63,950 nucleotides of DNA, taken from the IMG/VR virus record IMGVR_UViG_3300027899_000982, positions 1 through 63,950 of that record; one strand, given 5' to 3'. Below, in pieces: positions 21,110 through 46,783 of this stretch (its first letter is position 1; each line of letters opens with the position of its first letter). Under the pieces are notes generated by a model. The model was not told where the DNA came from and did no database searches. It was given only the letters and a program-made list of their open reading frames with translations. This stretch comes from a virus. Taxonomy: Duplodnaviria; Caudoviricetes. The position numbers and the translations under genes were made by a program.

Positions 21110-21111
21110 TT

Positions 21112-22119: not shown

Positions 22120-22132
22120 CTTCTCTCCTTTT

Positions 22133-22244
22133 AGCGGCGACCGGGTTGCCCCCTCCGGTTCCCATCGGTCAGGACGGTCTATAATCTCCGCTCATTGCCA
22201 CCACCCCGCCATTCAACGGCGCCTCACATGGCAGGGCCACCGCT
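22133..22244 (-). repeat. GC-rich structured intergenic element, copy A
   Basis: AGCGGUGG-CCC..GGGG-UGGUG...GGA-ACCGG..CCGGU-CGCCGCU directly before the RBS of glf. Confidence 0.8.
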
Positions 22245-22249
22245 GTTGG

Positions 22250-22450: not shown

Positions 22451-22468
22451 TTTCCCCTTTTCTCTTTC

Positions 22469-22508
22469 AGCGGCGATCCGGTTATCCCTACGGGAGTATC
22501 CCCCGGAC
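22469..22508 (-). repeat. Partial (3' half) copy of the structured element
   Basis: CCGG..GGGAUAACCGG-AUCGCCGCUGAAAG before an RBS. Confidence 0.55.
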
Positions 22509-22688
22509 CAGATAATTTTCCTCAATCTCCGTTTTCATTTCTTGAAGATTGTCAATGAATCCCTGGAATTCTTTAACATCTCTGGCGACCTTAATACGAA
22601 CATCAGGCCCAAAATGTAGAAAAATTCCCCTATCCAAGACATCTCCGTCATTATCGTAATTATTTACCGAAAAAGTGACCTTGTTCAC
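22488..22688 (-). CDS. Hypothetical protein
   Basis: GTG start after AGGGGG. Confidence 0.6.
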   Translation of the reverse strand: MNKVTFSVNNYDNDGDVLDRGIFLHFGPDVRIKVARDVKEFQGFIDNLQEMKTEIEENYLVRGILP

Positions 22689-22707
22689 GCTTCATCCCCC
22701 TTTCTTT

Positions 22708-22824
22708 AGCAGCGACCGGGTTGCCCCCTCCGGTTCCTCTCGGTCAGGACGGTCTATTCTTCTCCTTCCGTTGCCACCACCCCTCATCAGCCTTGCAAGG
22801 TCTTAATGGCGAGGGGCCGCCGCT
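22708..22824 (-). repeat. Structured intergenic element, copy B
   Basis: Same scaffold as copy A with pairing-preserving changes. Confidence 0.8.
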
Positions 22825-22827
22825 GGT

Positions 22828-23223
22828 TTATGAAAATTCTCCAACAAGATAGTCCCATGTTCCTTCACCATGACCAATACAATATCGACCGTCGATCCTG
22901 TGCCTTGCCAACCCGTTTGGCCCTGGTTCGGCACAGTTGTCGTCATACCACTGTTGATCTACTTTTGATGGCCCACATGACCTTTCCGTAATAATGGCGG
23001 TCATTTGATTTTTCCCAACCTCCTGCCCATACTCGTCTTTAATAAAAGACTCTATCCCTTTCCATTTATCCTGCCAATCGGCCAGACTATCAATCCCTTC
23101 TTCTGGTATTACATGGAGAGAGAAACACCAACCCCCACTACTTTTCCCAATATGAATTTCATCATATTCCCTGCCACAATGTGGGCAAGGAGGCTTAGGA
23201 TACCAGTAATAATTAGTTCCCAT
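22828..23223 (-). CDS. Conserved phage hypothetical protein
   Basis: MGTNYY..CPHCG..HIGKSSGGW.F...DEYG...EFS, a recurrent phage family pattern. Confidence 0.75.
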   Translation of the reverse strand: MGTNYYWYPKPPCPHCGREYDEIHIGKSSGGWCFSLHVIPEEGIDSLADWQDKWKGIESFIKDEYGQEVGKNQMTAIITERSCGPSKVDQQWYDDNCAEPGPNGLARHRIDGRYCIGHGEGTWDYLVGEFS

Positions 23224-23240
23224 CTTCTCTCCTTTCTTTC

Positions 23241-23396
23241 AGCGGCGACCGGGTTATCCCCACCCCGGCTCCTCGTCTGTCCTATGGCGCACTCGACACA
23301 GACTCGGCTCTGCCTTCATTTAGCCATCTCGCCTTCTCCACACCACCCCTATCCCCGAATCTACCCCCAAGAGTAGCCGGATAAGGGGCCACCGCT
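23241..23396 (-). repeat. Structured intergenic element, copy C (longer)
   Basis: Same termini and stems with expanded variable loops. Confidence 0.75.
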
Positions 23397-23401
23397 AAAT
23401 T

Positions 23402-24025
23402 CTACATTCTGGTTTTATTAGCCAGCTTAACAAACTCTTCTTCACAAAATTTTAGCCAAATGAATTGAGAAGCCATTGCATCATAAGAAGGAACTTCCAT
23501 TTTTGGATGGCAACAGTATCTTTCTACTTTTCTATTGCAGGTATCCATCAAGAAAACATTCCCGGCAACTCCCTTCTCAATTTTATACAGCTTACCAGAA
23601 GGGGCTACAAAACCGAATGATCCATTCTTCTCTAAATCTTCCACCTGTTTCTTATCAAGTAAACTGATCAATAATTGTTTGGACTTCTCTCTAGCTTCAG
23701 CATCTTTCTTTTCTCTTTCCTTAGCTAATCTTGCTTGTTCAGCCCTTTGAGCAGCCAATTTTTCCAATTGGGCTTTTTGTTCTGCTAATTGCTCTTTGGT
23801 GTAAACAATCGGCTTTGCTTGGTAAGTACCATTATCAGCTAATTTCTGCCATTCACATCTATCATAATTCCAAGTAGACCAAGTTGTGGCAGTGGAAGAA
23901 GTGGTAGATGCTGAATTCCCTGACCAAGTGTACCATGTTGAATCACTTGAAGTTGTTGTGGTAATAAATGACCAAGTCCAAGTTGACCAAGTATAGTCGG
24001 TGCCTGTTGAATAAGTATAAGCCAT
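23402..24025 (-). CDS. Hypothetical protein with Thr/Ser/Trp-rich N-terminus and coiled coil
   Basis: GGAGG RBS. Confidence 0.7.
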   Translation of the reverse strand: MAYTYSTGTDYTWSTWTWSFITTTTSSDSTWYTWSGNSASTTSSTATTWSTWNYDRCEWQKLADNGTYQAKPIVYTKEQLAEQKAQLEKLAAQRAEQARLAKEREKKDAEAREKSKQLLISLLDKKQVEDLEKNGSFGFVAPSGKLYKIEKGVAGNVFLMDTCNRKVERYCCHPKMEVPSYDAMASQFIWLKFCEEEFVKLANKTRM

Positions 24026-24033
24026 ATACCCTC

Positions 24034-24258
24034 CTACCCTGCTTGCATGGCAGGAACCATAATTAGCTTTTCTGCCGAAGGGTCAAACTTTTTCATTTCC
24101 CCTGCTTGCTCTCCTTTCTTGTCTACACGAAATGCTTTGTACCCTTTCTTCTTTAACTTGTCAAAAGTTTCCTCAGCATTTTCAACTTCATCTTCTTTGT
24201 CCTCATCCCAAATCAACTTTGTGTCCCCAGTCTCATCAATGATTCTTGCTTCTCCCAT
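24034..24258 (-). CDS. Small hypothetical protein ending VPAMQAG
   Basis: AAGGAGG RBS. Confidence 0.7.
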   Translation of the reverse strand: MGEARIIDETGDTKLIWDEDKEDEVENAEETFDKLKKKGYKAFRVDKKGEQAGEMKKFDPSAEKLIMVPAMQAG

Positions 24259-24404
24259 TTTGTTTCCTCCTTTTAATTAAAAATAGTTTATAAATTTAAT
24301 TACCCCGACAACAGCCAACATAATAATTCCAAATCCAGCAATAATTGCTATCAGCATCAAAAGCGATCCACAGACATACTCCACCAAATCTTCAAATTTT
24401 TGAT

Positions 24405-24995
24405 TCATATTTTTATTTCCTGTTTGTCAAACCAAATTTGTATTCCACCATGATTCTTCATTTCTGGATTATAAACCCCACCCCACTCATCTGTGAACTC
24501 ATTAAATATCAGAGTGTTTTTCCATTGGCTGAAGTGTTTTCCTTCCTTTATAAATTCATGGACAAAACAGCCATTATTTCTTTGTATATCTGTGTTCTTA
24601 ATATCATGCAAAGCCATGATTCCATTCTCATTCAGCAATTCTTTGTAGATATAGAAATCTTTTTTTACTCCTTCTAATGAATGGTCTCCATCAATAAAAA
24701 TTAAGTCATAGAGTAAGTCCAATTTATTTACCATATCAGGATGAACACGGATAATATTTTCCTTTTCATAAGTTGCAGTATGCTTTATATCTACAGCAAC
24801 CACCTTATCAAAAAGACAAGAGAATATAAAGGTTAAACCTCCATCCGCTGCCCCTATTTCAAGGACATTTTTACAACCATGTTTAATGATGAACTCCAGA
24901 AAAGGTTTTAATTCTGAGAACCTTTGCTGGGGCTTGTGCTGGATAGAACTAATAAGGGCCACATTGATTTTGTTGGTTAAAGCTATCTCTCCCAT
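24405..24995 (-). CDS. Class I SAM methyltransferase (Methyltransf_24-like)
   Basis: LEIGAADGG, DLIFIDGDHS and GIMALHDI motifs. Confidence 0.85.
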   Translation of the reverse strand: MGEIALTNKINVALISSIQHKPQQRFSELKPFLEFIIKHGCKNVLEIGAADGGLTFIFSCLFDKVVAVDIKHTATYEKENIIRVHPDMVNKLDLLYDLIFIDGDHSLEGVKKDFYIYKELLNENGIMALHDIKNTDIQRNNGCFVHEFIKEGKHFSQWKNTLIFNEFTDEWGGVYNPEMKNHGGIQIWFDKQEIKI

Positions 24996-25372
24996 TTAAT
25001 ACTTTCCTCTGGCACATTAGCAGGATACCAGTTAAATGCCCATCCAGAACCAACCCTAAAATCCATCAGCCTACCTATCCTTTCATAATTCTTGACGCTA
25101 CTCTTTAAAATAATCCCATAATAATATTCTGTGGTATATTTACTAAGGCTAAAATCAATTACCTCTACAAGCAAATATTGATTTGTTTGCTTATAATGAG
25201 CATTAGTTAAAACTGCTTTTTCTCCAATTTTATATTTGGGGACTTTTATTGCTTTGTCTTTCCTGGTCTTTCTCCAAATATATTCGTCTTTAGCTTTCTG
25301 CCTAACTTCAGAAAACCTATCTGCATTATTATCTATACCTAAATGAGTGTCAGTAATTGGATTTTTTACCAT
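24983..25372 (-). CDS. Hypothetical protein
   Basis: Coupled ORF within the operon. Confidence 0.6.
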   Translation of the reverse strand: MVKNPITDTHLGIDNNADRFSEVRQKAKDEYIWRKTRKDKAIKVPKYKIGEKAVLTNAHYKQTNQYLLVEVIDFSLSKYTTEYYYGIILKSSVKNYERIGRLMDFRVGSGWAFNWYPANVPEESIKWER

Positions 25373-25716
25373 TAATATCTCTTCCCATTTCTTATTAGTG
25401 CACTGGATTCAAAAGCCATAACTGCGTCTAAATCACACAAAGAACCTAATCTATCTAAACAGCCACTACATCTGCCAAAATAATTTGGAGTAAAAGACCC
25501 ACAAGAAATACACTTTTTCCATCCAACCTTCTTCAAGTCTTTTTTCTTGTGGTTAGTAACCTGTCTGGCTTTGGTGTTTCTGAGGTCATTCCAATATTGT
25601 CTTTTGACTTTTATAGACTCATCACAGTTATGCCATTTCTGTTTTCCATGAATGACAAATTTTTTTCTACAATAAATACAACAGGCTGGGGCTATATGAG
25701 GTTTCCAAACGGCCAC
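25372..25716 (-). CDS. Zn-finger protein
   Basis: CIYC and CISC...CSGC. Confidence 0.55.
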   Translation of the reverse strand: MAVWKPHIAPACCIYCRKKFVIHGKQKWHNCDESIKVKRQYWNDLRNTKARQVTNHKKKDLKKVGWKKCISCGSFTPNYFGRCSGCLDRLGSLCDLDAVMAFESSALIRNGKRY

Positions 25717-25886
25717 TATGATACTCCATCTATATTTGGTATAATTTTTTCTTCAACTATAACCAGCAATCTCTGCAATAGACTCACAATTTTTCTATCC
25801 TCAAATAAAATCTTTTTCAGTATATCTTTTTCTGACCATTCTCTCCTGTCAATTTCAGTGAGATATTCCTTTTGTTGTTCACTCAT
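25716..25886 (-). CDS. Hypothetical protein
   Basis: Short coupled ORF. Exact start uncertain. Confidence 0.4.
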   Translation of the reverse strand: MSEQQKEYLTEIDRREWSEKDILKKILFEDRKIVSLLQRLLVIVEEKIIPNIDGVS

Positions 25887-26590
25887 TTCATAATCCCCCT
25901 TAGCTTTGTCTCTGCTTCTTTCATACAATCCTGCCCAATATTATTACTTAGGATTTCATGGCTTCTATCAAATTCAAAGCCCATTCTGCCATAATTAGGA
26001 TCATTTGGATTTGATCCATCCCATTTATGCTCTATTGTTACGTCACCGATGAAATAAAAACGCCTTAGACGGTTTGCTAGATTATATAGGAAGTTATCAT
26101 TCGCATAAGTTAGACCAATAGGTGGGGTGAACCAGCCGACAGTCTCCACCCATTTCTTGCTGATAAATCCATGAGTGGCTAAGGAAGCACTAAAGTGTTT
26201 GTCTTCGCACCATATTAAACCAACTCCATCAGGAAACTGTTCAAACTTAGCAATCACAACTCGGTCCCAATCTTTTGTTTCATAGACAAGGTCATCTCCT
26301 CCCATTTGAAATATATCCCCATGAGAAACAGTAAGACAGTCATTCCAAAGACAACCCAAGTCGGGAAAGGTTTCTGGTCCAACAACAATGCGAGGGAAAA
26401 GCCTGATATCTGTCATTAGATAAACAGCTTCCCTAAATGATGGATCATTCAAATCATTGTCAGTATCATCCACCCTGAATATTACTTCAATATTGTTTTC
26501 ATCTGACTTGGTATTCTTGATACTATCTAACATCCTTAAGATGTTTTGTGGGCGTTTTCTTGCAGGAGTTAAAATTGATATTGTTTTCAC
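25883..26590 (-). CDS. GT2-like glycosyltransferase
   Basis: SILTPARKRP, RVDDTD, WN, GDDL and EH motifs. Confidence 0.75.
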   Translation of the reverse strand: MKTISILTPARKRPQNILRMLDSIKNTKSDENNIEVIFRVDDTDNDLNDPSFREAVYLMTDIRLFPRIVVGPETFPDLGCLWNDCLTVSHGDIFQMGGDDLVYETKDWDRVVIAKFEQFPDGVGLIWCEDKHFSASLATHGFISKKWVETVGWFTPPIGLTYANDNFLYNLANRLRRFYFIGDVTIEHKWDGSNPNDPNYGRMGFEFDRSHEILSNNIGQDCMKEAETKLRGIMK

Positions 26591-27595
26591 TCATCCCCCT
26601 TGTACTTGGTTTAAAATATCATAATAAACGGAGTATTGTTTCTTATTTTCTTGAACTGAAAACTTTTCATAGCAATAATCATAAGCCCTGTCTGCCATGA
26701 GTTGTCTTTTATCAGGATTTTCTACCATGTCTTTAATAGCATTATACCATGACTTTCTGGAATTGGACTTTAATAAAAGGCCATTGTGACCATTCACTAT
26801 AGAATTTTTATAACTTTCTGTACTGCTGGCTATAGTCACCGCCCTGATACTTGAATACTCAATAAATTTCAAATTAGATCGACAATCATTAAAAAGGTTC
26901 TGTCTATTTGGGACTATACCTATATCCATACCAAACTTTTGTAGGCTGGATATGAATAAATGAGGTTGTAAAAATGGATAGAAAGTTACCTTAGTGAATA
27001 ATTTAGGTGAATTTATACCAAACATAAATATATCTACTTTGTCTTTATAGGTTTCTTTGATGTCTAATAAAGCATCTTGAATGTCTACAGTAAAATCTGA
27101 CATATGGGTTTCACTGCCAGCCCAGCCTATTCTGATTTTACCATAATCAGGCTTAATATAAGACCTGTCAAACACCACTAGATTAGGCAACACGTAGACA
27201 TTTTTATTGAACTCTTTAATCATCTTAGCTAATCGTGGAGTGGAGACAGTTACTGCATGGGATATTTTTAGTATTTCTTCAAATCCCCTAATTCTCTCCC
27301 TGGTCCAGAATTTATACATTTCTCCTGTGTCCGGTGGGATAGACCAGATATTATCATCAATCTCTGAGACAATAACCTTGTTGAATTTAAGGAGCCTTTG
27401 AGTGGACTTATAAGCCGACTCATGGCATTGCCTTTGAATAATTATCATATCGGATTCTTGAAGATATTTCAATGGTAACTGTTCAGGCAAACTCCATTTA
27501 GCTTCTTCATATATCTCTTGGCAAAGTCCAGCAGGTTGTATAATCCTGTACCAGCTTGATCCACCAAAGTCTGCACAAACGAATAGAAGTTTCAT
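26591..27595 (-). CDS. GT-B (GT4-like) glycosyltransferase
   Basis: YRI.QP, EIDD, IGWAGS.TH, DIGIVP and FN.CRSNLKFIEY motifs. Confidence 0.85.
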   Translation of the reverse strand: MKLLFVCADFGGSSWYRIIQPAGLCQEIYEEAKWSLPEQLPLKYLQESDMIIIQRQCHESAYKSTQRLLKFNKVIVSEIDDNIWSIPPDTGEMYKFWTRERIRGFEEILKISHAVTVSTPRLAKMIKEFNKNVYVLPNLVVFDRSYIKPDYGKIRIGWAGSETHMSDFTVDIQDALLDIKETYKDKVDIFMFGINSPKLFTKVTFYPFLQPHLFISSLQKFGMDIGIVPNRQNLFNDCRSNLKFIEYSSIRAVTIASSTESYKNSIVNGHNGLLLKSNSRKSWYNAIKDMVENPDKRQLMADRAYDYCYEKFSVQENKKQYSVYYDILNQVQGG

Positions 27596-27684
27596 ATTTC
27601 AAATATCAAAGTCCAATTGATAGTAACCAACATAATCTTACCAAACACAATCCAGTAAATCATCCAGCCACCTCCTTAAACTTA

Positions 27685-28236
27685 TCATAGACCAAGTTTC
27701 TTTTTAGCCCAATTCTGTTTTAATGCTTCTGATAATTTTTTACGTGTTTCATTAGAAACATTTTGTCTTTTTCTTCCTTTAGCTTTATCAGATATTTTTC
27801 TTTTAGTTTCTTCGCTTAGAACACGACCTGTTATCTTTTCTATAAATTCTTTTGAATGTTTCCTTCCATAAAAAGGGTTTAACTCCCCAAATCGTTTACT
27901 ATCATACATAGGATTTTTCTTACCATCTATTCTACCTTTAGATTTCAAACCTATAACTTTCTTAGTTTGTTCAGTATGATTTTTTCCATAAAATGGATTT
28001 AGTTCTTGAATCTTTTTACTACCATGCAAAGACATGTGTTTTTCTTTAGTTAATAATTCTAAATTACTAATATGGTCATTCATAGGATTTTCATCTTTAT
28101 GATGGACATGATATCCTTTTCTCTTTAGATTATTAGGATTATAATGATTCCATATAAAGTGTGCTAAAGGTTCTCCATTTAAATAAATTCTTTCAGAATC
28201 ATACATTTTCCGTATTTCAAGGCTTTGAATTATCAT
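27685..28236 (-). CDS. HNH-NUMOD3 homing endonuclease
   Basis: HHKDENPMNDHISNLEL and NPFYGK.H repeats. Confidence 0.9.
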   Translation of the reverse strand: MIIQSLEIRKMYDSERIYLNGEPLAHFIWNHYNPNNLKRKGYHVHHKDENPMNDHISNLELLTKEKHMSLHGSKKIQELNPFYGKNHTEQTKKVIGLKSKGRIDGKKNPMYDSKRFGELNPFYGRKHSKEFIEKITGRVLSEETKRKISDKAKGRKRQNVSNETRKKLSEALKQNWAKKKLGL

Positions 28237-29807
28237 CTATTAATTACCTCCTTGAATTTAGAATAAGCCATATCAACTGTTATTTTACGACAGCAGATGT
28301 ATTGTCTCGGACAGACAACAGTGGTCCCCGCAACCGGACCTATATGACGACATCCTTGACACACAACAGGACTGATAATAGGAAACAAAGATTTTCCTAT
28401 TAAATTCACATCTGCCACATATTCTGGTTTTGTACAAGTATATAATGTTATACAATCTTTTTTTAATGACTGGCAAATATGACTTAAAAGCCCTTCATGA
28501 GAAAAATAAAGTTTACAAGCTTTTAGCAAATAAACTGTCTGCTCAATGGAAAGGGAACTTGTGAAGTTAAGATCAAATTCAAATGGCATAGGACCAGGAC
28601 TTAGCCCTACCAAAGCTACCTTATAGCCCTCTTTTCTTATCCTTTTAATGAATTCAAATAAATATTCATCTGGCCACTTTTTCATAAACCAAGTTTCACC
28701 AATATCCACACAGACATACTCAGAGAAATCTTTAGGTAGGAATTCATTCAGCTTGGGCATATTCTCTTGGAGCATTCGGAAATGACCTGTTACTCCATCA
28801 ACAGTAAAATCTTCTGTTATAGGGATTTGCAATTGTTCCCTAACAGCCCTTTCATAAGCCTTGACTATATGAATATCTTTAAAATCCCTCTCATAAGAGT
28901 AGTCAAGGTCAATGAAATAATCAGCATAAATAGGCACGTGCATCTTGGTCATAGCATCTACATAATCAGAAACTAAGATAGGTTCAAACATTTTAGACAT
29001 AAAGATTATGCAGTCATCAGGATATAGATCACGTAACTTTTTTAGGATAGGGGTAGCCAGGAAAACATCTCCAAAACTGCCTTCTCTTTTAACCACAATC
29101 ACCTTTCCAAATTTCTTGGCTATGACATAGGAATACCATCGTTTCTCAAATATCCTTTTATTCAAAACCTGATAGCCATAAATATCAGTCTCCAACATAA
29201 TTCTGTTAGTGGTTTTGGCCCTATGATGAATCCAATCTATCTTGATTTGCTTTAGCCTATACTCATCTTTCTTTAGTCTTAAAGACAAATCTCCATCTTC
29301 ATAATAACCATACTGATAGACAGAATCAAAAGGACCATAGCGTTTAGCTAATTCAGTCCTCATCATGAATAGAGAACCTTCTACATAATCTGGATTATCT
29401 GTCTCTGTATTGCCATAGCCTAAAGATTCTCCATTCCACATATTACAGACGTTAGTTAATGGCCCTACCTGCCCCACGTTAGGGTCTTTGAGAATAGCCA
29501 TAAAGGATTCGGCCCAAGGCCCATGAAACTCTATATCGTCATTACAGACCACAAAATAAGTGCCTGTAGCAATCTCTATAGACTGGTTATGGGCAGCCCC
29601 ATACCCTTTGTTCTCAGCATTGATAATAAATTTACAATCAGGGAAATGATTGATTGCAACATCTTGATAAGAGCTATCTGCTGAAGCATTATCCACCACA
29701 ATAAGTTCAACAGATAGCTCCTTCGTGGTCTCTCTCAAGGTATCACAAAATCTATTGAAGAGAGTTAAATCAGGGTCCATAACTGCTACGGATACAGTTA
29801 AAATCAT
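28233..29807 (-). CDS. GT2 + GT9 (heptosyltransferase-like) fusion
   Basis: N-terminal VVDNAS, GYGAAHN, NDD and YEDGD. C-terminal GSFGDV.LATP, KKWP and CQGC. Confidence 0.8.
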   Translation of the reverse strand: MILTVSVAVMDPDLTLFNRFCDTLRETTKELSVELIVVDNASADSSYQDVAINHFPDCKFIINAENKGYGAAHNQSIEIATGTYFVVCNDDIEFHGPWAESFMAILKDPNVGQVGPLTNVCNMWNGESLGYGNTETDNPDYVEGSLFMMRTELAKRYGPFDSVYQYGYYEDGDLSLRLKKDEYRLKQIKIDWIHHRAKTTNRIMLETDIYGYQVLNKRIFEKRWYSYVIAKKFGKVIVVKREGSFGDVFLATPILKKLRDLYPDDCIIFMSKMFEPILVSDYVDAMTKMHVPIYADYFIDLDYSYERDFKDIHIVKAYERAVREQLQIPITEDFTVDGVTGHFRMLQENMPKLNEFLPKDFSEYVCVDIGETWFMKKWPDEYLFEFIKRIRKEGYKVALVGLSPGPMPFEFDLNFTSSLSIEQTVYLLKACKLYFSHEGLLSHICQSLKKDCITLYTCTKPEYVADVNLIGKSLFPIISPVVCQGCRHIGPVAGTTVVCPRQYICCRKITVDMAYSKFKEVINR

Positions 29808-30581
29808 TTAGTTCCTCACATGACTCAGCATGATATTCCTTGGGCTGATACACTTTTCATCCTTGGATAGTTTAGCATCTATGTCTTGTGCTAAATCATA
29901 GCACCAGACCCAATCCTTTCCCATCTTACTGAACAGTTCCTGCGGATATTTTCTATGCAGTTTCCCATAACAGCATGGCAACATAAACAGGGCTTTAGCT
30001 TGGCTATATTCATAAATCTCGATGACCCTTCTGGATAATTCTCCACAGGGGTGACTGGAAACAATTATGGTGTTTTTGTTAATATACTTATTTAAAATAG
30101 AACCAGATTCAGGATAGGCAGGTTTTGTTCCTTTTACATAAAAGGAAAAATTTATATCAAATAAATCTTCATATTTGTATAGGAACCTTTGAACTTTATC
30201 CCATTGCCTATCTCTTGGCTTTTTATCAATAGCCACAGCATAGTCTACAGGCAGCAAATGGACAGCTAAGACACTGGTTAGGGCATTCCCGGCACACAAG
30301 TCTAGGACATTGTATTTTCCTCTATGGGATAATGCTAAATTCTTGACCCTTTTGATAAGGGCCATGCTTTCAGTGATTTCTTTTCTGGCATTCTTGCCTA
30401 TTGGGTTACAGACATTCAGCACATCACCACAGCATTTCATGGAAAGAAATTCATCTACATAGGTTTGTGGGGACCAATCAGTTAACTCTTTTAACTGCAT
30501 CCACTTTGACTTTTTCTTTCTTTTTTTGGATAGCTTTTGTTCTGATAATCCTTTCATTTCCCAAGCACTATCTAAATTCAT
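29808..30581 (-). CDS. SAM methyltransferase (Methyltransf_32/Trm13-like signature)
   Basis: LDLCAGN, HPCGELS, LPCCY and SPRN. Start placed after AAGGAGG. Confidence 0.65.
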   Translation of the reverse strand: MNLDSAWEMKGLSEQKLSKKRKKKSKWMQLKELTDWSPQTYVDEFLSMKCCGDVLNVCNPIGKNARKEITESMALIKRVKNLALSHRGKYNVLDLCAGNALTSVLAVHLLPVDYAVAIDKKPRDRQWDKVQRFLYKYEDLFDINFSFYVKGTKPAYPESGSILNKYINKNTIIVSSHPCGELSRRVIEIYEYSQAKALFMLPCCYGKLHRKYPQELFSKMGKDWVWCYDLAQDIDAKLSKDEKCISPRNIMLSHVRN

Positions 30582-30591
30582 TTCGCCCTCC

Positions 30592-31077
30592 TTACCTTGA
30601 TAGTCCATCAATAAATTGGGTTTTAATTTCCTGCTCCATAGCCTGTCCCATAGCATATATCTGTACATTGATTTCAATTATGTTAGACTGCTGGCCCCTG
30701 GCATCCCTGAGAAAAAATTTTGTGACATGAATACCAGGACTAGCATTGCTTTTTGATGTAATATAAAATCTTGTTGATCCGGCTACTCCCTTTATTCCAA
30801 TCTGACTTGCTGGATAAGAAAAATCCCATCTGGAAGGTCCAAAATATTCTTCGACATGTAAGGTTGTTATATCCCCATCAGTATCATTCCAAGACACTGT
30901 CCCCCAAACCGTTGTGCCCCTTTTCACTACTGTAGTATCCAATGACAACTGAATATAAGGTACTCCTGTTGAATTTCCACTTCCTGAATTACTTCCTCCA
31001 CCGGAGCAACCCACCAAAAATATCCCAACTACCAACAACAGAACTAATCTTTTCATTTTGCCCTCCCATCCTTTCAT
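30592..31077 (-). CDS. Lipoprotein with Ig-like domain
   Basis: LVGC lipobox (likely start MKRLV). Confidence 0.65.
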   Translation of the reverse strand: MKGWEGKMKRLVLLLVVGIFLVGCSGGGSNSGSGNSTGVPYIQLSLDTTVVKRGTTVWGTVSWNDTDGDITTLHVEEYFGPSRWDFSYPASQIGIKGVAGSTRFYITSKSNASPGIHVTKFFLRDARGQQSNIIEINVQIYAMGQAMEQEIKTQFIDGLSR

Positions 31078-34718: not shown

Positions 34719-35728
34719 TCTAAAAATTCCTTTCCTTTCTCGCTGTAGTATTCATCCAATCCTTCAGCTTTGCAGTACCTATTGAAAACAGTAATTGGCT
34801 CCGTATTTATGAATTTCCTTTTTCTCAACAGCCTGGATTTTTCCTCAGCCAACTTCAATTCCATACTGACTACAATCCCACCTGATCTTTCTATGTATGT
34901 TTTCAGAAGTTTTTTCCAGTCATCAAATTCACCACTATCAGACCTATTTACTTTAAGGCGAATCTTGAATTGGTCCCCTTTATTCACAGTCAAAGTTACT
35001 GGTATAACTTGATCGCCAGTAAAATCAATATCCAACATAGTCCTTTTGATAGTCTGATAATTTATTCTTTCGTATGGTCCTAATCCTGGCCCTACTTTCC
35101 CATCATGGTGTAACAGGATAGCCCCACCAGTAAAATCATCCCCAAAATAGACAGGATATGGACTGCCTACATATATAATCCCACCCGTTTCCTGCGGTAA
35201 GTGTAAATCACCACTGAAAATAAGCCCATCAAAATCAGCGAAAATACCAGAATCAAAACCTTCCAAAGCCATTCCATTGCTTGCTTTCCCCCCGAATGTA
35301 GTTTGGTGCATAAAGATTATATCTGTTTCTTTGATATGTTTTTTAAGAATGTCGTTCCACTCATTGGCTGGGTCTTTGGAATAAGGTAAGAAAAGCCAAT
35401 TATCCATAGCAATTGGATTTGAATGATAGTAGATATTATCAGCAGAATTGAGGAAACCAAAAAAAGGCCAATTAGGGTCTATCCCATCATGGTTTCCCCT
35501 TAGTATATGAAGAGATGATACTTCAAAAGCAAGGGCTTGTAATTCTTCTACTACCCTGTTGACTAACTTAGCAGAGTGATTGTCTTTCTTCTCAGTAATA
35601 TCCCCAAGCAGAAAGATGTTATCAAAATCATATTCTTCCTTTAAATCATAAAGCCAATCAAAGATGCCCCACCTGTACTCCTCAAGTGGGGCATCAGTCA
35701 AGTGTAAGTCAGATATAATAAGATCCAT
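34715..35728 (-). CDS. sbcD: SbcD/Mre11/gp47-like nuclease
   Basis: SDLH, LGD, GNHD, SGDLH and YVGSP motifs. Confidence 0.9.
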   Translation of the reverse strand: MDLIISDLHLTDAPLEEYRWGIFDWLYDLKEEYDFDNIFLLGDITEKKDNHSAKLVNRVVEELQALAFEVSSLHILRGNHDGIDPNWPFFGFLNSADNIYYHSNPIAMDNWLFLPYSKDPANEWNDILKKHIKETDIIFMHQTTFGGKASNGMALEGFDSGIFADFDGLIFSGDLHLPQETGGIIYVGSPYPVYFGDDFTGGAILLHHDGKVGPGLGPYERINYQTIKRTMLDIDFTGDQVIPVTLTVNKGDQFKIRLKVNRSDSGEFDDWKKLLKTYIERSGGIVVSMELKLAEEKSRLLRKRKFINTEPITVFNRYCKAEGLDEYYSEKGKEFLE

Positions 35729-37167
35729 TATAATTCCACTTTCTCAATTTCCTTTACTAAAGCATTCTTATCAATTTCCAGCATTTTCATAACATCAAAC
35801 ACCTTTTCGGAAAAACCAGCCAAACAGAAAACATTCTGTTCAGGGAATTGCATATCCCCATAACCAGCCAAGTCAAAAGAATAGATTAGGGGTTTACAGT
35901 TATACTTCTTGCAGTAATTATTATACTCTTCTTTAGGCATATCGTATCCAATCCAGCCCTGCATATCGGACAAAATAATAATCCGGTCATAAGCCTTATT
36001 TGCTTTCTCAAAGATAGTATGAAAGTCAGTTCCCCCACCAGTCATTCTTTTTTCTAAAGTCCTAGCAATTTCCATAGTAGGTAAAAGGGGTATCCTTTCG
36101 TCAGAAATATATCTTGCCTTAGAAGCAAAAGTTAATATTTCAGATTCAGTATTCCTTTTCCATAGAACAGCAGCAAACAAAGACCCTATCTTTTCTACTG
36201 TAGTTTTTCCACAAGCCGTTCCTCTCATACTTCCAGACTCATCCAAGACTATTAAAGTCTTACCAGAAAATTCAGGGACGTTGGATAAAGCAATATCTGT
36301 GGCTTTATCCAAAGCCTTAGAAATTTTCCTATCATTAGAAATCTCATCATAAGCAGTTAGAAACCGGAAAGGAAAAACTAAAGACTTCTTGATAGCCTTT
36401 TCGTCCACCAGCATCTCCAAGGCTTTGTCAAGGCTATCAGATGCTTGTTCTTTAATATTTCTTAGGTTTCTCAGCAAGGCAAAATAGCCTAGTTTCTTAT
36501 TATCAATCAAGTCTTTCCAAGCGGCATTTTTCAATTCAACTTTCTGTTCTTCATCCTCAGCTACTTGCCCAGCTTTGGTAAGCTTGGATTCCCAAGTTTC
36601 TGTAGAAACTAATTCTCCTTTCATCAGCTTATCCAAAATAGGATTAGACTTAGGGTGAATCAGATTGACTAAGTCAATCATCTTCATAGCTTTGCTTTCA
36701 CCCCTATACTTGGCAATCTGATACTCATTAAACTTTTGAATGGCCTGTCCTAAGCCCTTTTTTAAAGAGTTAGGAATAGGTTTGCCATAGGTAGTCATGT
36801 AATAGGACAGAATTTCGGTCATATCATCAGGCCGAAAGACCACCTTATCCAAGAAACTTTTCATCCAAGTTTGGCCTTTAACCTTGTTGACCAATTCACC
36901 TGCCAAGACATGGGTGATAGATCGCATACCATATTTAGTCCTGGCATAGATACCTGCCTTAGCCAAAAATTTCTTATCAGGCAAATTCTGGACCAATTCA
37001 GCCATTCTCTGGACAGCTTCAGCAGACCGTCTGTAATACTGGTCCTGCACCATGTTAGTCAATAACATGGACACTACTTCTAATTTGTCGGATTGTTTGT
37101 GGGCTTGACCACCAGCCCGATTGATTACCTTGGTTTGCTCAACTTTCTTGGGATTAAATCTTGCCAT
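35728..37167 (-). CDS. rsr: Ro60/TROVE-domain RNA-binding protein (Rsr ortholog)
   Basis: NRAGG.A, YAR...GMRS, RPDD, FNEYQIAKY, TWE, ALLRNLRNI, PFRF, vWA MIDAS DESGSM, GGTDF and GFSEKVF motifs. Confidence 0.95.
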   Translation of the reverse strand: MARFNPKKVEQTKVINRAGGQAHKQSDKLEVVSMLLTNMVQDQYYRRSAEAVQRMAELVQNLPDKKFLAKAGIYARTKYGMRSITHVLAGELVNKVKGQTWMKSFLDKVVFRPDDMTEILSYYMTTYGKPIPNSLKKGLGQAIQKFNEYQIAKYRGESKAMKMIDLVNLIHPKSNPILDKLMKGELVSTETWESKLTKAGQVAEDEEQKVELKNAAWKDLIDNKKLGYFALLRNLRNIKEQASDSLDKALEMLVDEKAIKKSLVFPFRFLTAYDEISNDRKISKALDKATDIALSNVPEFSGKTLIVLDESGSMRGTACGKTTVEKIGSLFAAVLWKRNTESEILTFASKARYISDERIPLLPTMEIARTLEKRMTGGGTDFHTIFEKANKAYDRIIILSDMQGWIGYDMPKEEYNNYCKKYNCKPLIYSFDLAGYGDMQFPEQNVFCLAGFSEKVFDVMKMLEIDKNALVKEIEKVEL

Positions 37168-37195
37168 TTCAATGCCCTCCCTTTCTTTTTATTTC

Positions 37196-37271
37196 CCAGG
37201 AGAATAATAAACAGAGTGGTTTTCTGGTAAGATTTCAAGTCTTATGAAGTAACCCTGCCTTCACTGCCTGG
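37196..37271 (-). ncRNA. Y RNA-like ncRNA 4 (anticodon-arm only)
   Basis: CCAGG-CAGUGA-..GGGUUACUUC..UUCU-CCUGG scaffold with an internal UAAGA-CUUGAAA-UCUUA stem-loop. Confidence 0.75.
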
Positions 37272-37276
37272 AAATA

Positions 37277-37546
37277 TTAAATTACAGTCCAATCTTCTCC
37301 CATTAAATCGCCCTTGTTCAAAACCCACTGATAATTGATATTATCTGGCTTGTGAAGAGAAAGAATGTCCCCATTAAGGAATCCATAAAATTCTTTGTCT
37401 ACCCACTCCAGTTTATGAATCTTTTTACCAGCGGCCACTTGTTTAATGGCATGATGGAAACTCATAGTAGGTGGTGTGAGTATTCCCTTTGGTTTTGGTG
37501 TTGGACTTTGGGCCAATGTCACTTGGTCCGGTTGTAATACTTCCAT
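37277..37546 (-). CDS. DUF2829/Tad2-like anti-defence nucleotide-sponge protein
   Basis: MSF..A......G..I....W...W.....D...EDW pattern. Confidence 0.65.
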   Translation of the reverse strand: MEVLQPDQVTLAQSPTPKPKGILTPPTMSFHHAIKQVAAGKKIHKLEWVDKEFYGFLNGDILSLHKPDNINYQWVLNKGDLMGEDWTVI

Positions 37547-37567
37547 TTTCCCCTCCTTTTTTTATTT

Positions 37568-37640
37568 TATTCGGGAGAAAATCAGACAGGGATTGTTTCC
37601 AATATGCGTTTGAAGTAACCCTATCCTTACTGCCCGAATA
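37568..37640 (-). ncRNA. Y RNA-like ncRNA 3 (minimal)
   Basis: UAUUCGGG-CAGUAA-GGAUAGGGUUACUUC...CCCUGUCU-GAUUUUCU-CCCGAAUA. Confidence 0.75.
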
Positions 37641-37647
37641 TATTCTT

Positions 37648-37724
37648 TGGTACAGATGACAGGATTTGAACCTGCGGCCACTTGGTCCCAGGCCAAGTGC
37701 TCTACCAGACTGAGCTACACCTGT
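37648..37724 (-). tRNA. tRNA-Pro(UGG) with encoded CCA
   Basis: Full cloverleaf: ACAGGTG-TA-GCTC.AGTCTGGTA.GAGC-A-CTTGG.CCTGGGA.CCAAG-TGGCC-GCAGG.TTCAAAT.CCTGT-CATCTGT-A-CCA. Confidence 0.9.
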
Positions 37725-37728
37725 AGAA

Positions 37729-37856
37729 AAAGGAGAGAGAAAACCTAATTGAGTTGAGGGCTGGATGCCCTTTGCCATACCAACTTGGCGACAATCGCTT
37801 GTGCGATCAATTGGAGTTGAACCAATGAAGTAACTCAATTATTACTACTCTCCTTT
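37729..37856 (-). ncRNA. YrlA-like Y RNA 2 with permuted tRNA domain
   Basis: Shared scaffold plus T-arm (AUUGG-UUCAACU-CCAAU), closed hairpin and D-arm (GCCA-AGUUGGUA-UGGC). Confidence 0.85.
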
Positions 37857-37865
37857 AAAATTCTT

Positions 37866-37975
37866 AGACAGGAAGAAAATCTGAAAAGGTAATGTGGGAT
37901 TCGGACCCACTCGACTCGCTGTTTAGGCGAATTTCATAACCAATATGAAGTAACCCTTTCATTACTATCCTGTCT
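37866..37975 (-). ncRNA. Y RNA-like ncRNA 1 with D-anticodon-T arms in tRNA order
   Basis: Shared scaffold plus UUCAUA-UUGGU-UAUGAA, UUCGC-CUAAACA-GCGAG and GUGGG-UCCGAAU-CCCAC. Confidence 0.8.
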
Positions 37976-37986
37976 TTCTATTAACT

Positions 37987-38016
37987 ATTATAACCCCTTT
38001 TCTCTATTTTGGACAA
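37987..38016 (-). promoter_or_regulatory. Promoter TTGTCC-N18-TATAAT upstream of the Y RNA/Ro60 locus
   Basis: The same motif and spacing occur four times in the window. Confidence 0.75.
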
Positions 38017-46231: not shown

Positions 46232-46783
46232 CTATTTGTTTTTAGACCATCGTTTCTTTTGGGCTAAAGACATTTTTAATTTTGTTTCTTCACTAGCTTT
46301 GTTTCCCAAATTGTATTTATTTCCCATTCTATCTAAAGAATATTTCCTGCGTGTTTCTTCAGAATGGTGTTTTCCAAACATACCATTAGATGGTCCAATT
46401 TGTTTTCCTTTTAAAGCAACAGACATTTTTCTAAGTGTTTCTTCAGAGTGTTTTTGCCCTTTCTTAGACAAAGACAATTTTTGTTTAGACTCTTCAGAAA
46501 AATGTTTACCATAAAAATGATTCTTCTCTCCTTTTACAGATTCAGATATTTTATGTTTGGTTTCTTTAGAAATAATCTTTCCTTTGTGATGTAAACTTTG
46601 GTGGTCGGCATGTGTCATTAATTCTAAATTTTCAATCGCATCATTCAGAGTATCCTCATCCTTATGATGTACAACCATTCCCTTTTTCCAAGGATTATTT
46701 GGGTTATGTTCGTTCCAAATGATGTGGGCACGTTGCTGATTTCCTACCATAGAACGATTTCTATAAATTCTATAAATTTCCAT
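46232..46783 (-). CDS. HNH-NUMOD3 homing endonuclease
   Basis: HHKDEDTLNDAIENLEL and HSEET repeats. Confidence 0.9.
   Translation of the reverse strand: MEIYRIYRNRSMVGNQQRAHIIWNEHNPNNPWKKGMVVHHKDEDTLNDAIENLELMTHADHQSLHHKGKIISKETKHKISESVKGEKNHFYGKHFSEESKQKLSLSKKGQKHSEETLRKMSVALKGKQIGPSNGMFGKHHSEETRRKYSLDRMGNKYNLGNKASEETKLKMSLAQKKRWSKNK

What the first reader, a model, noticed from the sequence alone, without database searches (positions are those of the whole stretch)
37729..37975. Adjacent Y RNAs carry tRNA arms in two different permutations
Seen: element 37729-37856 has T-arm (AUUGG-UUCAACU-CCAAU), closed acceptor-like hairpin (AUCGC-ACAA-GCGAU), D-arm (GCCA-AGUUGGUA-UGGC), then an extra hairpin. 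This is the permuted order described for YrlA. Element 37866-37975 has the canonical order: D-like arm (loop UUGGU), anticodon-like arm (loop CU-AAA-CA), 4-nt variable region, T-like arm (loop UCCGAAU), with the Ro-binding stem in place of the acceptor stem. Inference: the same scaffold has captured tRNA modules in two topologies, presenting different tRNA faces. I do not know of the canonical-order form as a described Y RNA class.
Basis: partly seen in the sequence, partly recalled or inferred. Interest (0 to 1): 0.8.

Follow-up and report, generated by a model that had tools for sequence, protein, structure and literature searches.

The report
Phage Y RNAs with two tRNA layouts
A phage carries, next to its Ro60 gene, a row of four small Ro60-type "Y" RNAs, one built like a rearranged tRNA and one like an ordinary tRNA held inside the same docking stem, which extends a known kind of tRNA mimic.

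Summary
All features lie on the minus strand.

They belong to a larger array just upstream of a TROVE/vWA Ro60 (Rsr) gene at 37167-35728: Y-B, Y-A, tRNA-Pro, a third small Y RNA, a Tad2-like ORF, and a fourth small Y RNA.

All four Y RNAs share one scaffold: a terminal stem, a UAGYRA / AUUUUCU internal loop, an upper stem and a UUACUUC junction. This scaffold recurs next to Rsr genes in 160 related phage or metagenome loci. 162 of 163 model hits lie on the Rsr strand, and the scaffold helices covary strongly.

Y-A has the YrlA layout (T arm, closed acceptor, D arm). 24 of 123 distinct hits share that layout under a strict test.

Y-B has D, anticodon-like, variable and T arms in normal tRNA order. 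This is a rarer but recurrent class: 10 distinct elements in 161 loci, plus two in the GenBank crAss-like phage csAssE-Sib, where they are annotated as tRNA-Tyr and tRNA-Lys.

The normal order has a partial precedent. Chen et al. 2014 modelled Deinococcus Yrn1 in that orientation. I therefore rate Y-B a new variant of a known kind.

Ro60 binding, expression and function are all inferred, not shown.

The parts
37987..38016 (-). Promoter-like site TTGTCC-18 nt-TATAAT, ending about 12 nt upstream of Y-B
   Evidence: 10 of 12 consensus matches. The number of such sites in the region (3) is not above the shuffled expectation (4.2), so only its position is suggestive.
37866..37975 (-). Y-B: Y RNA with a tRNA-like core in normal order. 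Lower stem 37974-37968 / 37873-37867. 5' loop UAGUAA 37967-37962. Upper stem 37961-37953 / 37890-37882. UACUU junction 37952-37948. D-like arm 37947-37935. Anticodon-like arm 37931-37915. Variable UCGA 37914-37911. T-like arm 37910-37894. 3' loop GAUUUUCU 37881-37874.
   Evidence: z -4.50; Rfam tRNA-Sec 26.8 bits, E 0.0048, below the gathering score of 47. Closest counterpart L002:1738-1845 at 63.7 bits. Arm covariation.
37729..37856 (-). Y-A: YrlA-type Y RNA. UUACUUC junction, T arm 37826-37810, closed acceptor-like hairpin 37809-37792, D arm 37789-37774, extra hairpin 37770-37758, inside a two-part stem.
   Evidence: z -6.07; R1 36.2 bits, E 7.2e-08; one of 24 of 123 distinct hits with the T / closed hairpin / D order; alignment with L002:1856-1984 and L014:2170-2291, which also carry the extra hairpin.
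37648..37724 (-). tRNA-Pro (UGG) with encoded CCA, between Y-A and Y-C. It has no Y scaffold.
   Evidence: Rfam tRNA 66.8 bits; ARAGORN.
37569..37639 (-). Y-C: small Y RNA with the same scaffold and a single-hairpin module (YrlB-like in size)
   Evidence: R1 34.6 bits, E 2.3e-07; z -2.94, 1 of 200 shuffles as stable.
37277..37546 (-). 89-aa ORF with a Tad2-like (Thoeris anti-defence 2) domain, sitting inside the Y RNA array
   Evidence: PF11195, 7e-08, 33.3 bits, cutoff 25; one contig of a related freshwater phage skips 37278-37559, so the ORF is absent there.
37194..37273 (-). Y-D: fourth small Y RNA, just upstream of the Rsr start codon
   Evidence: R1 23.6 bits, E 0.0009; z -2.78, 1 of 200.
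35728..37167 (-). Ro60 / Rsr orthologue, 479 aa (TROVE ring + vWA domain)
   Evidence: TROVE 8.9e-24; vWA_Ro60 7.9e-05, below its cutoff. (PDB 9KOP/9L5Y 3e-21; human RO60 1.1e-05; Xenopus Ro60 6.6e-05; D. radiodurans Rsr 2e-04). (phrog_850, 1.8e-44). (3840 homologues at E <= 1e-3 among 7998 candidates scored).

Best explanation
The interval 37194-37975 (minus strand) is the non-coding part of a phage Ro60 (Rsr) locus. It holds four Y RNAs and one tRNA-Pro. They are probably transcribed together with rsr from a promoter just upstream of Y-B and cut apart by host RNA-processing enzymes.

Each Y RNA has the same docking scaffold for the Ro60 ring: a terminal helix, an internal loop (5' UAGYRA opposite 3' AUUUUCU), an upper helix and a UUACUUC junction. 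Each carries a different distal 'effector' module.
- Y-A carries the known YrlA module, a tRNA body in permuted order (T arm, closed acceptor, D arm). Here the Ro60-binding stem stands where the anticodon stem would be.
- Y-B carries a tRNA body in normal order (D, anticodon-like, variable, T). Here the Ro60-binding stem stands where the acceptor stem would be.
- Y-C and Y-D carry single hairpins.

I think the RNAs act as interchangeable adaptors that tether the phage Ro60 ring to different partners. Likely partners are tRNA-recognising proteins or an exoribonuclease such as PNPase, as in the Deinococcus and Thermus-phage Ro60/Y RNA/PNPase complexes. The two layouts would leave different parts of the tRNA shape free. 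Y-A exposes the elbow plus closed acceptor. Y-B exposes the elbow plus anticodon stem-loop.

Shown here: sequence, folds, covariation, synteny, homology of the protein. Inferred: transcription, processing, Ro60 binding, partners, effect on infection.
For: Context:
- A TROVE + vWA gene lies on the same strand, 27 nt downstream of Y-D.

Scaffold:
- R1 hits in the window number 4, all in 37194-37974.
- In 160 related Rsr loci there are 159 further hits at E <= 1. In all, 162 of 163 lie on the Rsr strand.
- In three phage genomes of 94-100% estimated completeness (356,470 bases) there are 2 hits at E <= 1. Both are the Rsr-adjacent elements already known.
- Scaffold helices on 66 distinct rows: 91.3% of cells paired against 57.4% in shuffles (0 of 500 shuffles reach it), and 40-47% when partners are slid. 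All 16 scaffold pairs change on both sides (that alignment is fitted to the model).
- Conserved loop and junction letters: UUAC at 73-97%, UUUUCU at 76-91% per position. UUAC matches the YUAY motif of YrlA (PMC4201824, section 6).

Y-A:
- 24 of 123 distinct hits share the T / closed hairpin / D order, with differing stem sequences.
- A related element, L002:2014-2132, scores 42.4 bits (E 1.7e-06) on Rfam YrlA.

Y-B class:
- 10 distinct elements in 161 loci, plus 2 in GenBank OR575929.1.
- On a MAFFT alignment not fitted to structure, the anticodon-like and T helices are 93.3% paired against 60.9% shuffled (0 of 500) and 34-56% when slid. 8 of 10 pairs show compensatory change.
- The Rfam tRNA model scores 33.7-52.5 bits (gathering score 29) inside 6 of 9 tested elements.
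- The Y-B then Y-A order is kept in the closest viral locus, L002.

Precedent for tethering: passages of PMC12135203 (phiLo Ro60-Yrl-PNPase) and of bioRxiv 10.1101/312249 (discussion read).
Against: - No expression or binding data exist. No RNA run is listed for this DNA.
- The literal YrlA 5' motif GNCGAAN0-1G is absent from all four window elements. They have AGUAAUGA, AGUAAUAA, AGUAAGGA and AGUGAAGG.
- Rfam YrlA gives no hit on Y-A even at E <= 10, and no hit at gathering score in 20 related loci.
- Window Y-B is the weakest tRNA mimic of its class. Its D loop is 5 nt (UUGGU), shorter than the 7-9 nt D loops (with a leading A) of most class members; in standard tRNA numbering, which is recalled, that leaves no room for positions 14, 15 and 21. 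It has C where U55 is expected, and 5-nt and 3-nt linkers to the closing stem.
- ARAGORN does not call Y-B, and the tRNA models stay below threshold.
- The promoter match is not above chance in number.
- The locus sits among DNA replication and recombination genes. No RNA ligase or RtcB was seen in the window, so it is not in an RNA-repair context.
Confidence: 0.7

Rival explanations
1. The tRNA-like Y RNAs are decoys. They soak up host tRNA-directed factors, for example anticodon nucleases or other tRNA-targeting defence enzymes. Ro60 serves mainly to stabilise them or to hand the trapped factor or RNA to a nuclease. The normal-order form exists because it displays an intact anticodon stem-loop.
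For: - The normal-order class keeps a 5-bp stem and mostly a 7-nt loop, with U at loop position 2 in 9 of 12 elements.
- An anti-defence-type ORF (Tad2-like) sits inside the array.
- A Ro60-like protein of phage Bas63 was reported to counter the Ppl defence system (PMC11482910, passages read).
- Y RNA units and the Tad2-like ORF are present or absent as cassettes among close relatives, as is usual for counter-defence loci.
Against: - The anticodon-like triplets differ in nearly every member (AAA, AAG, ACU, GUA, UCA, CUU, UUG, GUG, UUU). No single tRNA identity is mimicked.
- Some loops are 6 or more than 7 nt (L030, L150).
- No tRNA-targeting system or host is known for this phage.
- It does not explain the small Y-C and Y-D.
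Confidence: 0.15
2. Y-B-type elements are real tRNA genes or tRNA precursors. Their long closing stems are processing signals, and the released RNA decodes or receives CCA.
For: - ARAGORN calls a tRNA inside 7 of 11 normal-order elements tested.
- GenBank annotates the two csAssE-Sib elements as tRNA-Tyr and tRNA-Lys.
- M. smegmatis YrlA is cut by RNase P and receives CCA in vivo (PMC4201824, section 8 passages).
Against: - Window Y-B is not called by ARAGORN and is below threshold on Rfam tRNA models.
- There is no 7-bp acceptor stem ending in a discriminator and CCA. The closing helix runs on into the scaffold shared with non-tRNA-like Y RNAs.
- The true tRNA-Pro in the array lacks that scaffold.
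- Linkers or whole hairpins separate the T arm from the closing stem.
- 3 of 12 elements have A at the wobble position. That this is unusual for decoding tRNAs is general knowledge, recalled.
Confidence: 0.05
3. The structures are cis-acting parts of the rsr transcript, such as leader stabilisers, processing sites or attenuators, and not separate trans-acting RNAs.
For: They lie directly upstream of rsr on the same strand. No terminator-like site separates them from rsr apart from the T arm itself.
Against: - In some related loci the same elements lie downstream of rsr (for example L095:1562-1691 with rsr at 93-1538, and L099:2902-3030).
- An ORF is inserted between them and rsr in the window.
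- Four different modules on one conserved scaffold fit adaptor RNAs better than a leader.
- Bacterial Y RNAs in the same position are stable Ro60-bound RNAs (PMC4201824).
Confidence: 0.05

Closest known systems
YrlA (Salmonella Typhimurium and more than 250 bacteria and phages; Rfam RF02553; crystal structure PDB 6CU1)
   Same: - Encoded next to Rsr on the same strand.
- The ends pair into a Ro60-binding stem.
- A YUAY motif at the junction.
- T arm 5' of a closed acceptor-like hairpin, then the D arm. The window's Y-A has exactly this order.
   Different: - Y-A has no V hairpin before the T arm and has an extra hairpin after the D arm.
- The D stem is GCCA/UGGC, where 19 of the 24 strict-order elements have GCUC/GAGC.
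- The literal GNCGAAN0-1G motif is absent.
- The Rfam model does not score it.
- Y-B does not have this arm order at all.
Deinococcus radiodurans Yrn1 as modelled by Chen et al. 2014 (PMC4201824, Fig. 2E text and discussion)
   Same: A Ro60-bound Y RNA whose D-like and T arms stand in the opposite orientation to YrlA, with an 'anticodon arm' between them. This is the normal tRNA order, as in Y-B.
   Different: - Yrn1 has only partial D-loop features, a 6-nt loop and no variable region, and its tRNA likeness is called 'less evident' (bioRxiv 10.1101/312249, discussion).
- The class found here has all three arms, mostly 7-nt loops and 3-5-nt variable regions.
- In 6 of 9 tested elements it passes the Rfam tRNA threshold.
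YrlB (Salmonella, M. smegmatis)
   Same: A second, smaller Y RNA in the same locus that shares the Ro60-binding part, like Y-C and Y-D.
   Different: No sequence relation was tested. The likeness is one of size and position only.
Thermus phage phiLo Ro60 with Yrl1/Yrl2 (PMC12135203; PDB 9KOP, 9L5Y)
   Same: A phage Ro60 with Y-like RNAs encoded upstream. It is the closest solved relative of the window's protein (E 3e-21). It forms a ternary complex with host PNPase in vitro.
   Different: In the passages I read, Yrl1/Yrl2 are described as stem-bulge-stem RNAs with a CGAA motif, and no tRNA-like module is mentioned.
b7a-tRNA (predicted by Burroughs and Aravind 2016, known to me only through the discussion of bioRxiv 10.1101/312249)
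   Same: [quoted passage not shown]
   Different: - I could not read the original paper.
- Nothing I saw says it is enclosed in a Ro60-binding stem.
- It is linked mainly to Band-7 and RtcB genes, which are not in this window.
Circularly permuted tRNA genes of some algae and archaea (cited in bioRxiv 10.1101/312249, discussion)
   Same: tRNA bodies occur in more than one linear order.
   Different: Those are precursors of working tRNAs. Here the bodies stay embedded in a Y RNA scaffold.

Membership tests
Bacterial/phage Y RNA (Ro60-associated) | Encoded close to, and on the same strand as, a Ro60/Rsr (TROVE) gene | tested here: met
   Four elements lie within 810 nt upstream of the TROVE + vWA gene, on the same strand. 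In relatives, 162 of 163 hits are on the Rsr strand.
Bacterial/phage Y RNA (Ro60-associated) | The 5' and 3' ends pair into a stem interrupted by a conserved loop or bulge that serves as the Ro60 site | tested here: met
   Folds. Covariation of the lower and upper stems. Conserved loop letters.
Bacterial/phage Y RNA (Ro60-associated) | 5' motif GNCGAAN0-1G (Chen et al. 2014) or CGAA (PMC12135203) | tested here: not met
   The window elements have AGUAAUGA, AGUAAUAA, AGUAAGGA and AGUGAAGG at that place. The family consensus is UAG[U/C][G/A]A, with C at the fourth place in 22 of 66 rows. It is a related purine-rich motif, not the literal one.
Bacterial/phage Y RNA (Ro60-associated) | Physically bound and stabilised by Ro60 | not testable with these tools
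   Needs immunoprecipitation or CLIP.
YrlA subfamily | YUAY at the junction, then (V), T arm, closed acceptor-like stem, D arm | tested here: met
   Met for Y-A. Not met for Y-B, whose arms run D, anticodon-like, T.
YrlA subfamily | Score at or above the Rfam RF02553 gathering threshold (69 bits) | tested here: not met
   No hit on Y-A or Y-B at E <= 10. 0 YrlA hits at gathering score in 20 related loci. The best relative is L002:2014-2132 at 42.4 bits.
YrlA subfamily | tRNA-type modifications (pseudouridine 55, dihydrouridine) and an L-shaped fold | not testable with these tools
   Needs modification mapping and structure probing.
tRNA (for Y-B) | Cloverleaf with a 7-bp acceptor stem, free ends, and detection by tRNA finders | tested here: not met
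   ARAGORN finds only tRNA-Pro in the window. Best Rfam match on Y-B is tRNA-Sec at 26.8 bits against a gathering score of 47. The closing helix continues into the Y scaffold.
Yrn1-type (normal-order) Y RNA | D-like element, anticodon-like arm and T arm in that order inside the Ro60-binding stem | tested here: met
   Sequence relation to Yrn1 itself was not tested, because no Yrn1 sequence was available from a tool.

The most novel reading that the evidence does not exclude
The phage Y RNA scaffold is a modular display platform that has been joined to tRNA bodies at three or more different points:
- at the anticodon end (YrlA type);
- at the acceptor end (Y-B type);
- at the acceptor/D junction, with the acceptor closed by a GAAA hairpin (L051, L059, L078, L127).

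One Ro60 ring could therefore be aimed at different tRNA-recognising host factors. The normal-order forms would expose an anticodon loop to recruit or titrate anticodon-directed enzymes.

A corollary follows. A share of the odd 'tRNA genes' annotated next to TROVE genes in phage genomes, crAss-like gut phages included, would be Y RNAs and not decoders. Normal-order forms would also argue against a dimeric-tRNA origin for all tRNA-like Y RNAs.
Probability: 0.3. Interest if true: 0.7.

Novelty: new variant of a known kind. Interest (0 to 1): 0.55.

Why it matters
Y RNAs that mimic tRNA are known, but their partners and purpose are not. In print the mimic has been defined essentially by the permuted YrlA layout.

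A recurrent class with the ordinary tRNA order, on the same Ro60 scaffold and in the same operon as a YrlA-type RNA, gives a natural paired comparison. The protein and docking stem are the same and opposite ends of the tRNA shape are free. That should help to find what binds the tRNA-like module.

It also bears on how Y RNAs arose. The dimeric-tRNA model explains T-before-D order, not D-before-T.

It has a practical side as well. ARAGORN, Rfam and a GenBank record label several of these elements as tRNAs, so phage tRNA counts and anticodon inventories near TROVE genes may be inflated.

Tried and rejected
- **Rfam.** No YrlA hit at gathering score in the window or in 20 related loci. At E <= 10 the only YrlA match in the region is the D arm of tRNA-Pro.
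- **GenBank phages.** In blastn of 37560-38000, no record covers 80% of the query. All 30 rows shown match only the tRNA-Pro part, so there is no near relative of the Y RNAs.
- **Locus search with the single Rsr protein.** 11 pattern matches in viral contigs, none confirmed. Replaced by a search with the 34-protein alignment A1.
- **First alignment of normal-order elements.** The MAFFT alignment A2 was out of register in the D and anticodon arms and was not used for a model. A single-sequence model (R1) was used instead. R1 misses L051:2266-2393.
- **D stems.** On alignment A6 the D stems are not in one register, so only the anticodon-like and T helices were counted there. D-stem pairing rests on a script that searched for pairing segments and is biased towards pairing.
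- **Chance rate of a cloverleaf core.** 41 of 16,200 random positions have one, true tRNAs included. Against 711 loosely defined anchors that alone is weak. The closing scaffold and the Rfam scores carry the argument.
- **Independent capture from different tRNAs.** Core-to-core alignment scores were 9-27. Scores to the best tRNA other than the element's own ARAGORN call were 16-31. Inconclusive.
- **Anticodon-arm mimics in small Y RNAs.** 14 of 58 small elements have a 5-bp/7-nt-loop hairpin, and 7 of those have a Y-U...R loop. Not convincing, and dropped.
- **Whole-genome search with R1.** The genome search on five virus records found nothing, although known matches lie there. This is a first-look filter miss and carries no evidence. 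Three records were then fetched whole and searched directly.
- **Expression.** No RNA holder is listed for this DNA. Contigs of four DNA runs were laid and show only presence and absence of cassettes in relatives.
- **Earlier findings of this scan.** None for this genome.
- **Papers.** The reviews PMC10870794 and PMC6047535 are not held. The Burroughs and Aravind 2016 paper was not found. Of the Chen 2014 supplements I read only Table S2, which lists 22 phages, all found with YrlA-type models. The supplementary figures PDF cannot be read here and may show further orientations.
- **Searches for a printed description of normal-order Y RNAs.** Searches found only the Yrn1 passages.
Full report
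**What is there.** The finding lies on the minus strand. Read 5' to 3' on that strand, the region holds the following.
- A PDDEXK-type nuclease ORF at 38561-38034.
- A promoter-like site at 38016-37987.
- Element Y-B at 37975-37866.
- Element Y-A at 37856-37729.
- tRNA-Pro(UGG) with encoded CCA at 37724-37648 (Rfam 66.8 bits; ARAGORN).
- A third small element, Y-C, at 37639-37569.
- An 89-aa ORF with a Tad2-like domain at 37546-37277.
- A fourth small element, Y-D, at 37273-37194.
- A 479-aa gene at 37167-35728.

The 479-aa product has a TROVE domain (8.9e-24) and a vWA domain. It matches the solved Ro60 of Thermus phage phiLo over residues 17-469 (E 3e-21). It matches human, Xenopus and Deinococcus Ro60/Rsr more weakly.

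The window is a phage fragment. It encodes gp32-like, RecA-like, PolA, DnaB-like, clamp-loader, SbcCD-like, tail and lysis genes. CheckV estimates 40% completeness.

**Check of the observation.** Unconstrained folding gives exactly the described layouts. Y-A: z -6.07, 0 of 200 shuffles as stable. Y-B: z -4.50, 0 of 200. Y-C and Y-D fold as the same two-part stem with one distal hairpin (z -2.94 and -2.78, 1 of 200 each).

**The shared scaffold.** All four elements have the same parts:
- a terminal stem;
- a 5' loop AGUAA(U/G) or AGUGAA;
- an upper stem;
- the junction GUUACUUCA;
- on the 3' side, G(A/G)UUUUCU or UUAUUCU, before the terminal stem closes.

I built a covariance model from Y-B alone (R1). 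In the window it finds four hits, and no others in 63,950 bases: Y-B (140.1 bits), Y-A (36.2), Y-C (34.6) and Y-D (23.6, E 0.0009).

**Relatives.** The Rsr protein has 3840 homologues at E <= 1e-3 among 7998 candidates scored. Most of the best 120 are 52-58% identical; the two closest are 82% and 70% identical. With an alignment of 34 of them I fetched 80 viral loci (162 of 179 candidate stretches confirmed, best 80 kept). I also fetched 80 metagenome loci (583 of 602 confirmed, best 80 kept).

R1 finds 79 further hits in the viral loci and 80 in the metagenome loci at E <= 1. Of all 163 hits, 162 lie on the Rsr strand, and they collapse to 123 distinct sequences. A few weak hits are true tRNAs (L048:4302, L057:3968, L069:5251 = L094:4751, L107:3467).

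In three phage genomes of 94-100% estimated completeness, fetched whole (356,470 bases), R1 gives only 2 hits at E <= 1. Both are the known Rsr-adjacent elements. It misses L051's element there.

On the viral alignment (66 distinct rows) the scaffold helices are 90-95% paired and every pair changes on both sides. For the whole structure, 91.3% of cells pair against 57.4% in shuffles (0 of 500 shuffles reach it) and 38-47% when partners are slid. That alignment is fitted to the model, which favours pairing.

The most conserved single-stranded letters are UAG.. at the 5' loop, UUAC-UU(C) at the junction and UUUUCU at the 3' loop. UUAC is the YUAY motif that Chen et al. 2014 place at nucleotides 22-25 of Salmonella YrlA (PMC4201824, section 6 read). 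Their GNCGAAN0-1G motif is not literally present in the window elements.

**Y-A is a YrlA-type RNA.** Chen et al. 2014 define YrlA by a T arm, a closed 'AS' stem and a D arm in that order, often with a V hairpin before the T arm (sections 5 and 6 read). Wang et al. call this a resemblance to circularly permuted tRNA (bioRxiv 10.1101/312249, discussion read).

A strict script test required a 5-bp T stem with a .YCRA loop start, a 5-7-bp closed hairpin, and a 4-bp D stem with GG in the loop. It finds this order in 24 of 123 distinct hits, Y-A included. T and AS stem sequences differ between them.

Y-A lacks the V hairpin and instead has a hairpin after the D arm. So do L002:1856-1984 and L014:2170-2291, with different hairpin sequences.

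Rfam's YrlA model does not score Y-A. It does score one relative, L002:2014-2132, at 42.4 bits (E 1.7e-06, gathering score 69). This links the family to YrlA without meeting the curated threshold.

**Y-B belongs to a recurrent normal-order class.** The closest viral locus, L002 (Rsr 63% identical), has a counterpart of Y-B (63.7 bits) directly followed by a counterpart of Y-A. Scripts and folds find the same D / anticodon-like / variable / T order inside the Y scaffold in 10 distinct elements:
- WIN (the window's Y-B)
- L002
- L030 (identical to L144)
- L051
- L059 (L060 is a near copy)
- L065
- L074
- L078
- L127
- L150

That is 12 of 161 loci.

Two more stand in the GenBank crAss-like phage csAssE-Sib (OR575929.1), just upstream of its 'Ro sixty-related protein'. 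There they are annotated as tRNA-Tyr and tRNA-Lys.

Independent tools see the tRNA likeness.
- The Rfam tRNA model scores above its gathering score of 29 bits inside the scaffold in 6 of 9 elements tested: L059 52.5, L051 50.2, L074 48, L030 47.1, L150 44.8, L065 33.7.
- It does not in WIN, L002 or L078. These are the three with a short UUGGU D loop.
- ARAGORN calls a tRNA inside 7 of 11 elements tested, not in the window's.

On a plain MAFFT alignment of the 12 cores (A6), the anticodon-like and T helices are 93.3% paired. Shuffles give 60.9% (0 of 500 reach the observed value) and slid partners give 34-56%. 8 of 10 pairs show compensatory change. The two invariant pairs are the G-C pairs next to the T loop, which I recall as being conserved in tRNAs too.

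D stems also differ while pairing: CAUA/UAUG, GGCA/UGCC, GUCC/GGAC, GCUC/GAGC, GCUU/AAGC, GUGU/ACAC, ACUC/GAGU. Those segments were chosen by a script that looks for pairing.

**Why these are not tRNA genes.**
- The closing helix runs on into the scaffold shared with Y RNAs that have no tRNA likeness.
- The junction UUACUUC and 2-9-nt linkers, or a whole GAAA-tetraloop hairpin (L051, L059, L078, L127), separate the closing stem from the D and T arms.
- There is no discriminator or CCA.
- The anticodon-like triplets include A at the first place in 3 of 12 (AAA, AAG, ACU).
- Two loops are not 7 nt.
- The real tRNA-Pro in the array has no scaffold.

**What is known already.** tRNA-like Y RNAs next to Rsr are established in more than 250 bacteria and 22 phages (PMC4201824; Table S2 read: all found with YrlA-type models). 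So are several Y RNAs per locus and neighbouring tRNA genes.

The normal order has one precedent in what I could read. Chen et al. 2014 state that in D. radiodurans Yrn1 the orientation of the T and D arms differs from YrlA, and that the stem-loop between them takes the place of the anticodon arm. They describe a 5-bp stem, a 6-nt loop, no V region and only partial D features (section 6 and discussion passages). Wang et al. call Yrn1's tRNA likeness 'less evident'.

The same discussion cites a predicted b7a-tRNA that is occasionally next to Rsr. I could not read that source. My searches found no description of full normal-order cloverleaf Y RNAs, of both layouts in one array, or of Y RNAs in crAss-like phages. 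Two reviews and the supplementary figures of Chen 2014 could not be read.

**Mechanism.** I commit to the adaptor model. One phage Ro60 ring docks on the common scaffold, and the distal module selects the partner.

In YrlA the Ro60-binding stem replaces the anticodon stem, according to the crystal structure of the module as described in bioRxiv 10.1101/312249. In Y-B it replaces the acceptor stem. The two RNAs would therefore hold Ro60 at opposite ends of the L shape and leave different surfaces free.

Tethering to an exoribonuclease has precedent in Deinococcus (RYPER) and in phiLo (PMC12135203, passages read).

A decoy role against tRNA-directed host factors is the main rival. It is hinted at by the Tad2-like ORF inside the array. 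It is also hinted at by the cassette-like gain and loss seen in related freshwater contigs (contigs at 80% likeness or more). One contig lacks Y-A while keeping Y-B with 1 changed letter. One lacks the Tad2-like ORF. One has 238 extra letters between tRNA-Pro and Y-A. The varied anticodon-like triplets speak against mimicry of one tRNA.

None of transcription, processing, binding or effect is shown.

**Verdict.** The Y RNA call is strong. The normal-order class is real, recurrent, and in part mislabelled as tRNA by standard tools and in one GenBank record. It is a new variant of a known kind, not a new kind.

Noticed in passing
window 37569-37639 (-) and 37194-37273 (-): Two further small Y RNAs (Y-C, Y-D) on the same scaffold, with single-hairpin modules.
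   Followed up: yes
window 37277-37546 (-): An 89-aa ORF with a Tad2-like (Thoeris anti-defence 2) domain sits inside the Y RNA array. A related freshwater contig skips exactly this stretch (37278-37559), so it looks like an inserted cassette.
   Followed up: partly
window 37725-37864 (-): Contigs from other freshwater metagenomes join tRNA-Pro directly to Y-B (Y-A absent), or carry 238 extra letters between tRNA-Pro and Y-A. Whole Y RNA units seem to be gained and lost among close relatives.
   Followed up: partly
window 61877-61936 (-): A type-P5 twister ribozyme match at 49.5 bits (gathering score 37.6), between two minus-strand ORFs.
   Followed up: no
L164 (GenBank OR575929.1, phage csAssE-Sib) 1998-2415: Three Y RNAs lie upstream of the annotated 'Ro sixty-related protein'. 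One is YrlA-type. Two are normal-order elements that the record annotates as tRNA-Tyr and tRNA-Lys, and one of these keeps its own 6-bp acceptor-like stem inside the Y stem.
   Followed up: partly
L165 (Bacteroides phage crAss001, NC_049977.1) 3920-4825: An unannotated gap of about 900 nt lies downstream of the TROVE gene Gp96.
- It holds two R1 hits (4016-4099 at 22.8 bits; 4110-4187 at 14.6 bits).
- It holds a tRNA-model match of 46.6 bits with an 82-nt insertion in the anticodon arm (4193-4336).
- It holds a second acceptor/T-arm pair around a 103-nt insert (4448-4589).
- A band-7/SPFH gene (Gp91) is nearby.
   Followed up: partly
L051:2266-2393, L059:2353-2481, L078:2135-2261, L127:~30-160: A subclass of normal-order Y RNAs has a GAAA-tetraloop hairpin (..CCGAAAGG..) right after the T arm. 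It may be a closed acceptor mimic, which would make a third way of joining a tRNA body to the scaffold.
   Followed up: partly
L003, L010, L021, L069 and others: In most YrlA-type relatives the 'V' hairpin before the T arm is a 5-bp stem with a 7-nt loop, followed by (N)GGUC. In layout it resembles an anticodon arm plus variable loop more than a variable arm.
   Followed up: no
window 1327-1827 (+), 14728-15216 (-), 27685-28236 (-), 46232-46783 (-): Four HNH + NUMOD3 homing-endonuclease-type ORFs are scattered through the fragment.
   Followed up: no
window 269-7607 (+) and 13756-30677 (-): There is an unusually large set of sugar-modifying genes for a phage: many glycosyltransferases, methyltransferases, a UDP-glucose dehydrogenase, a UDP-galactopyranose mutase and a B12/radical SAM enzyme.
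   Followed up: no
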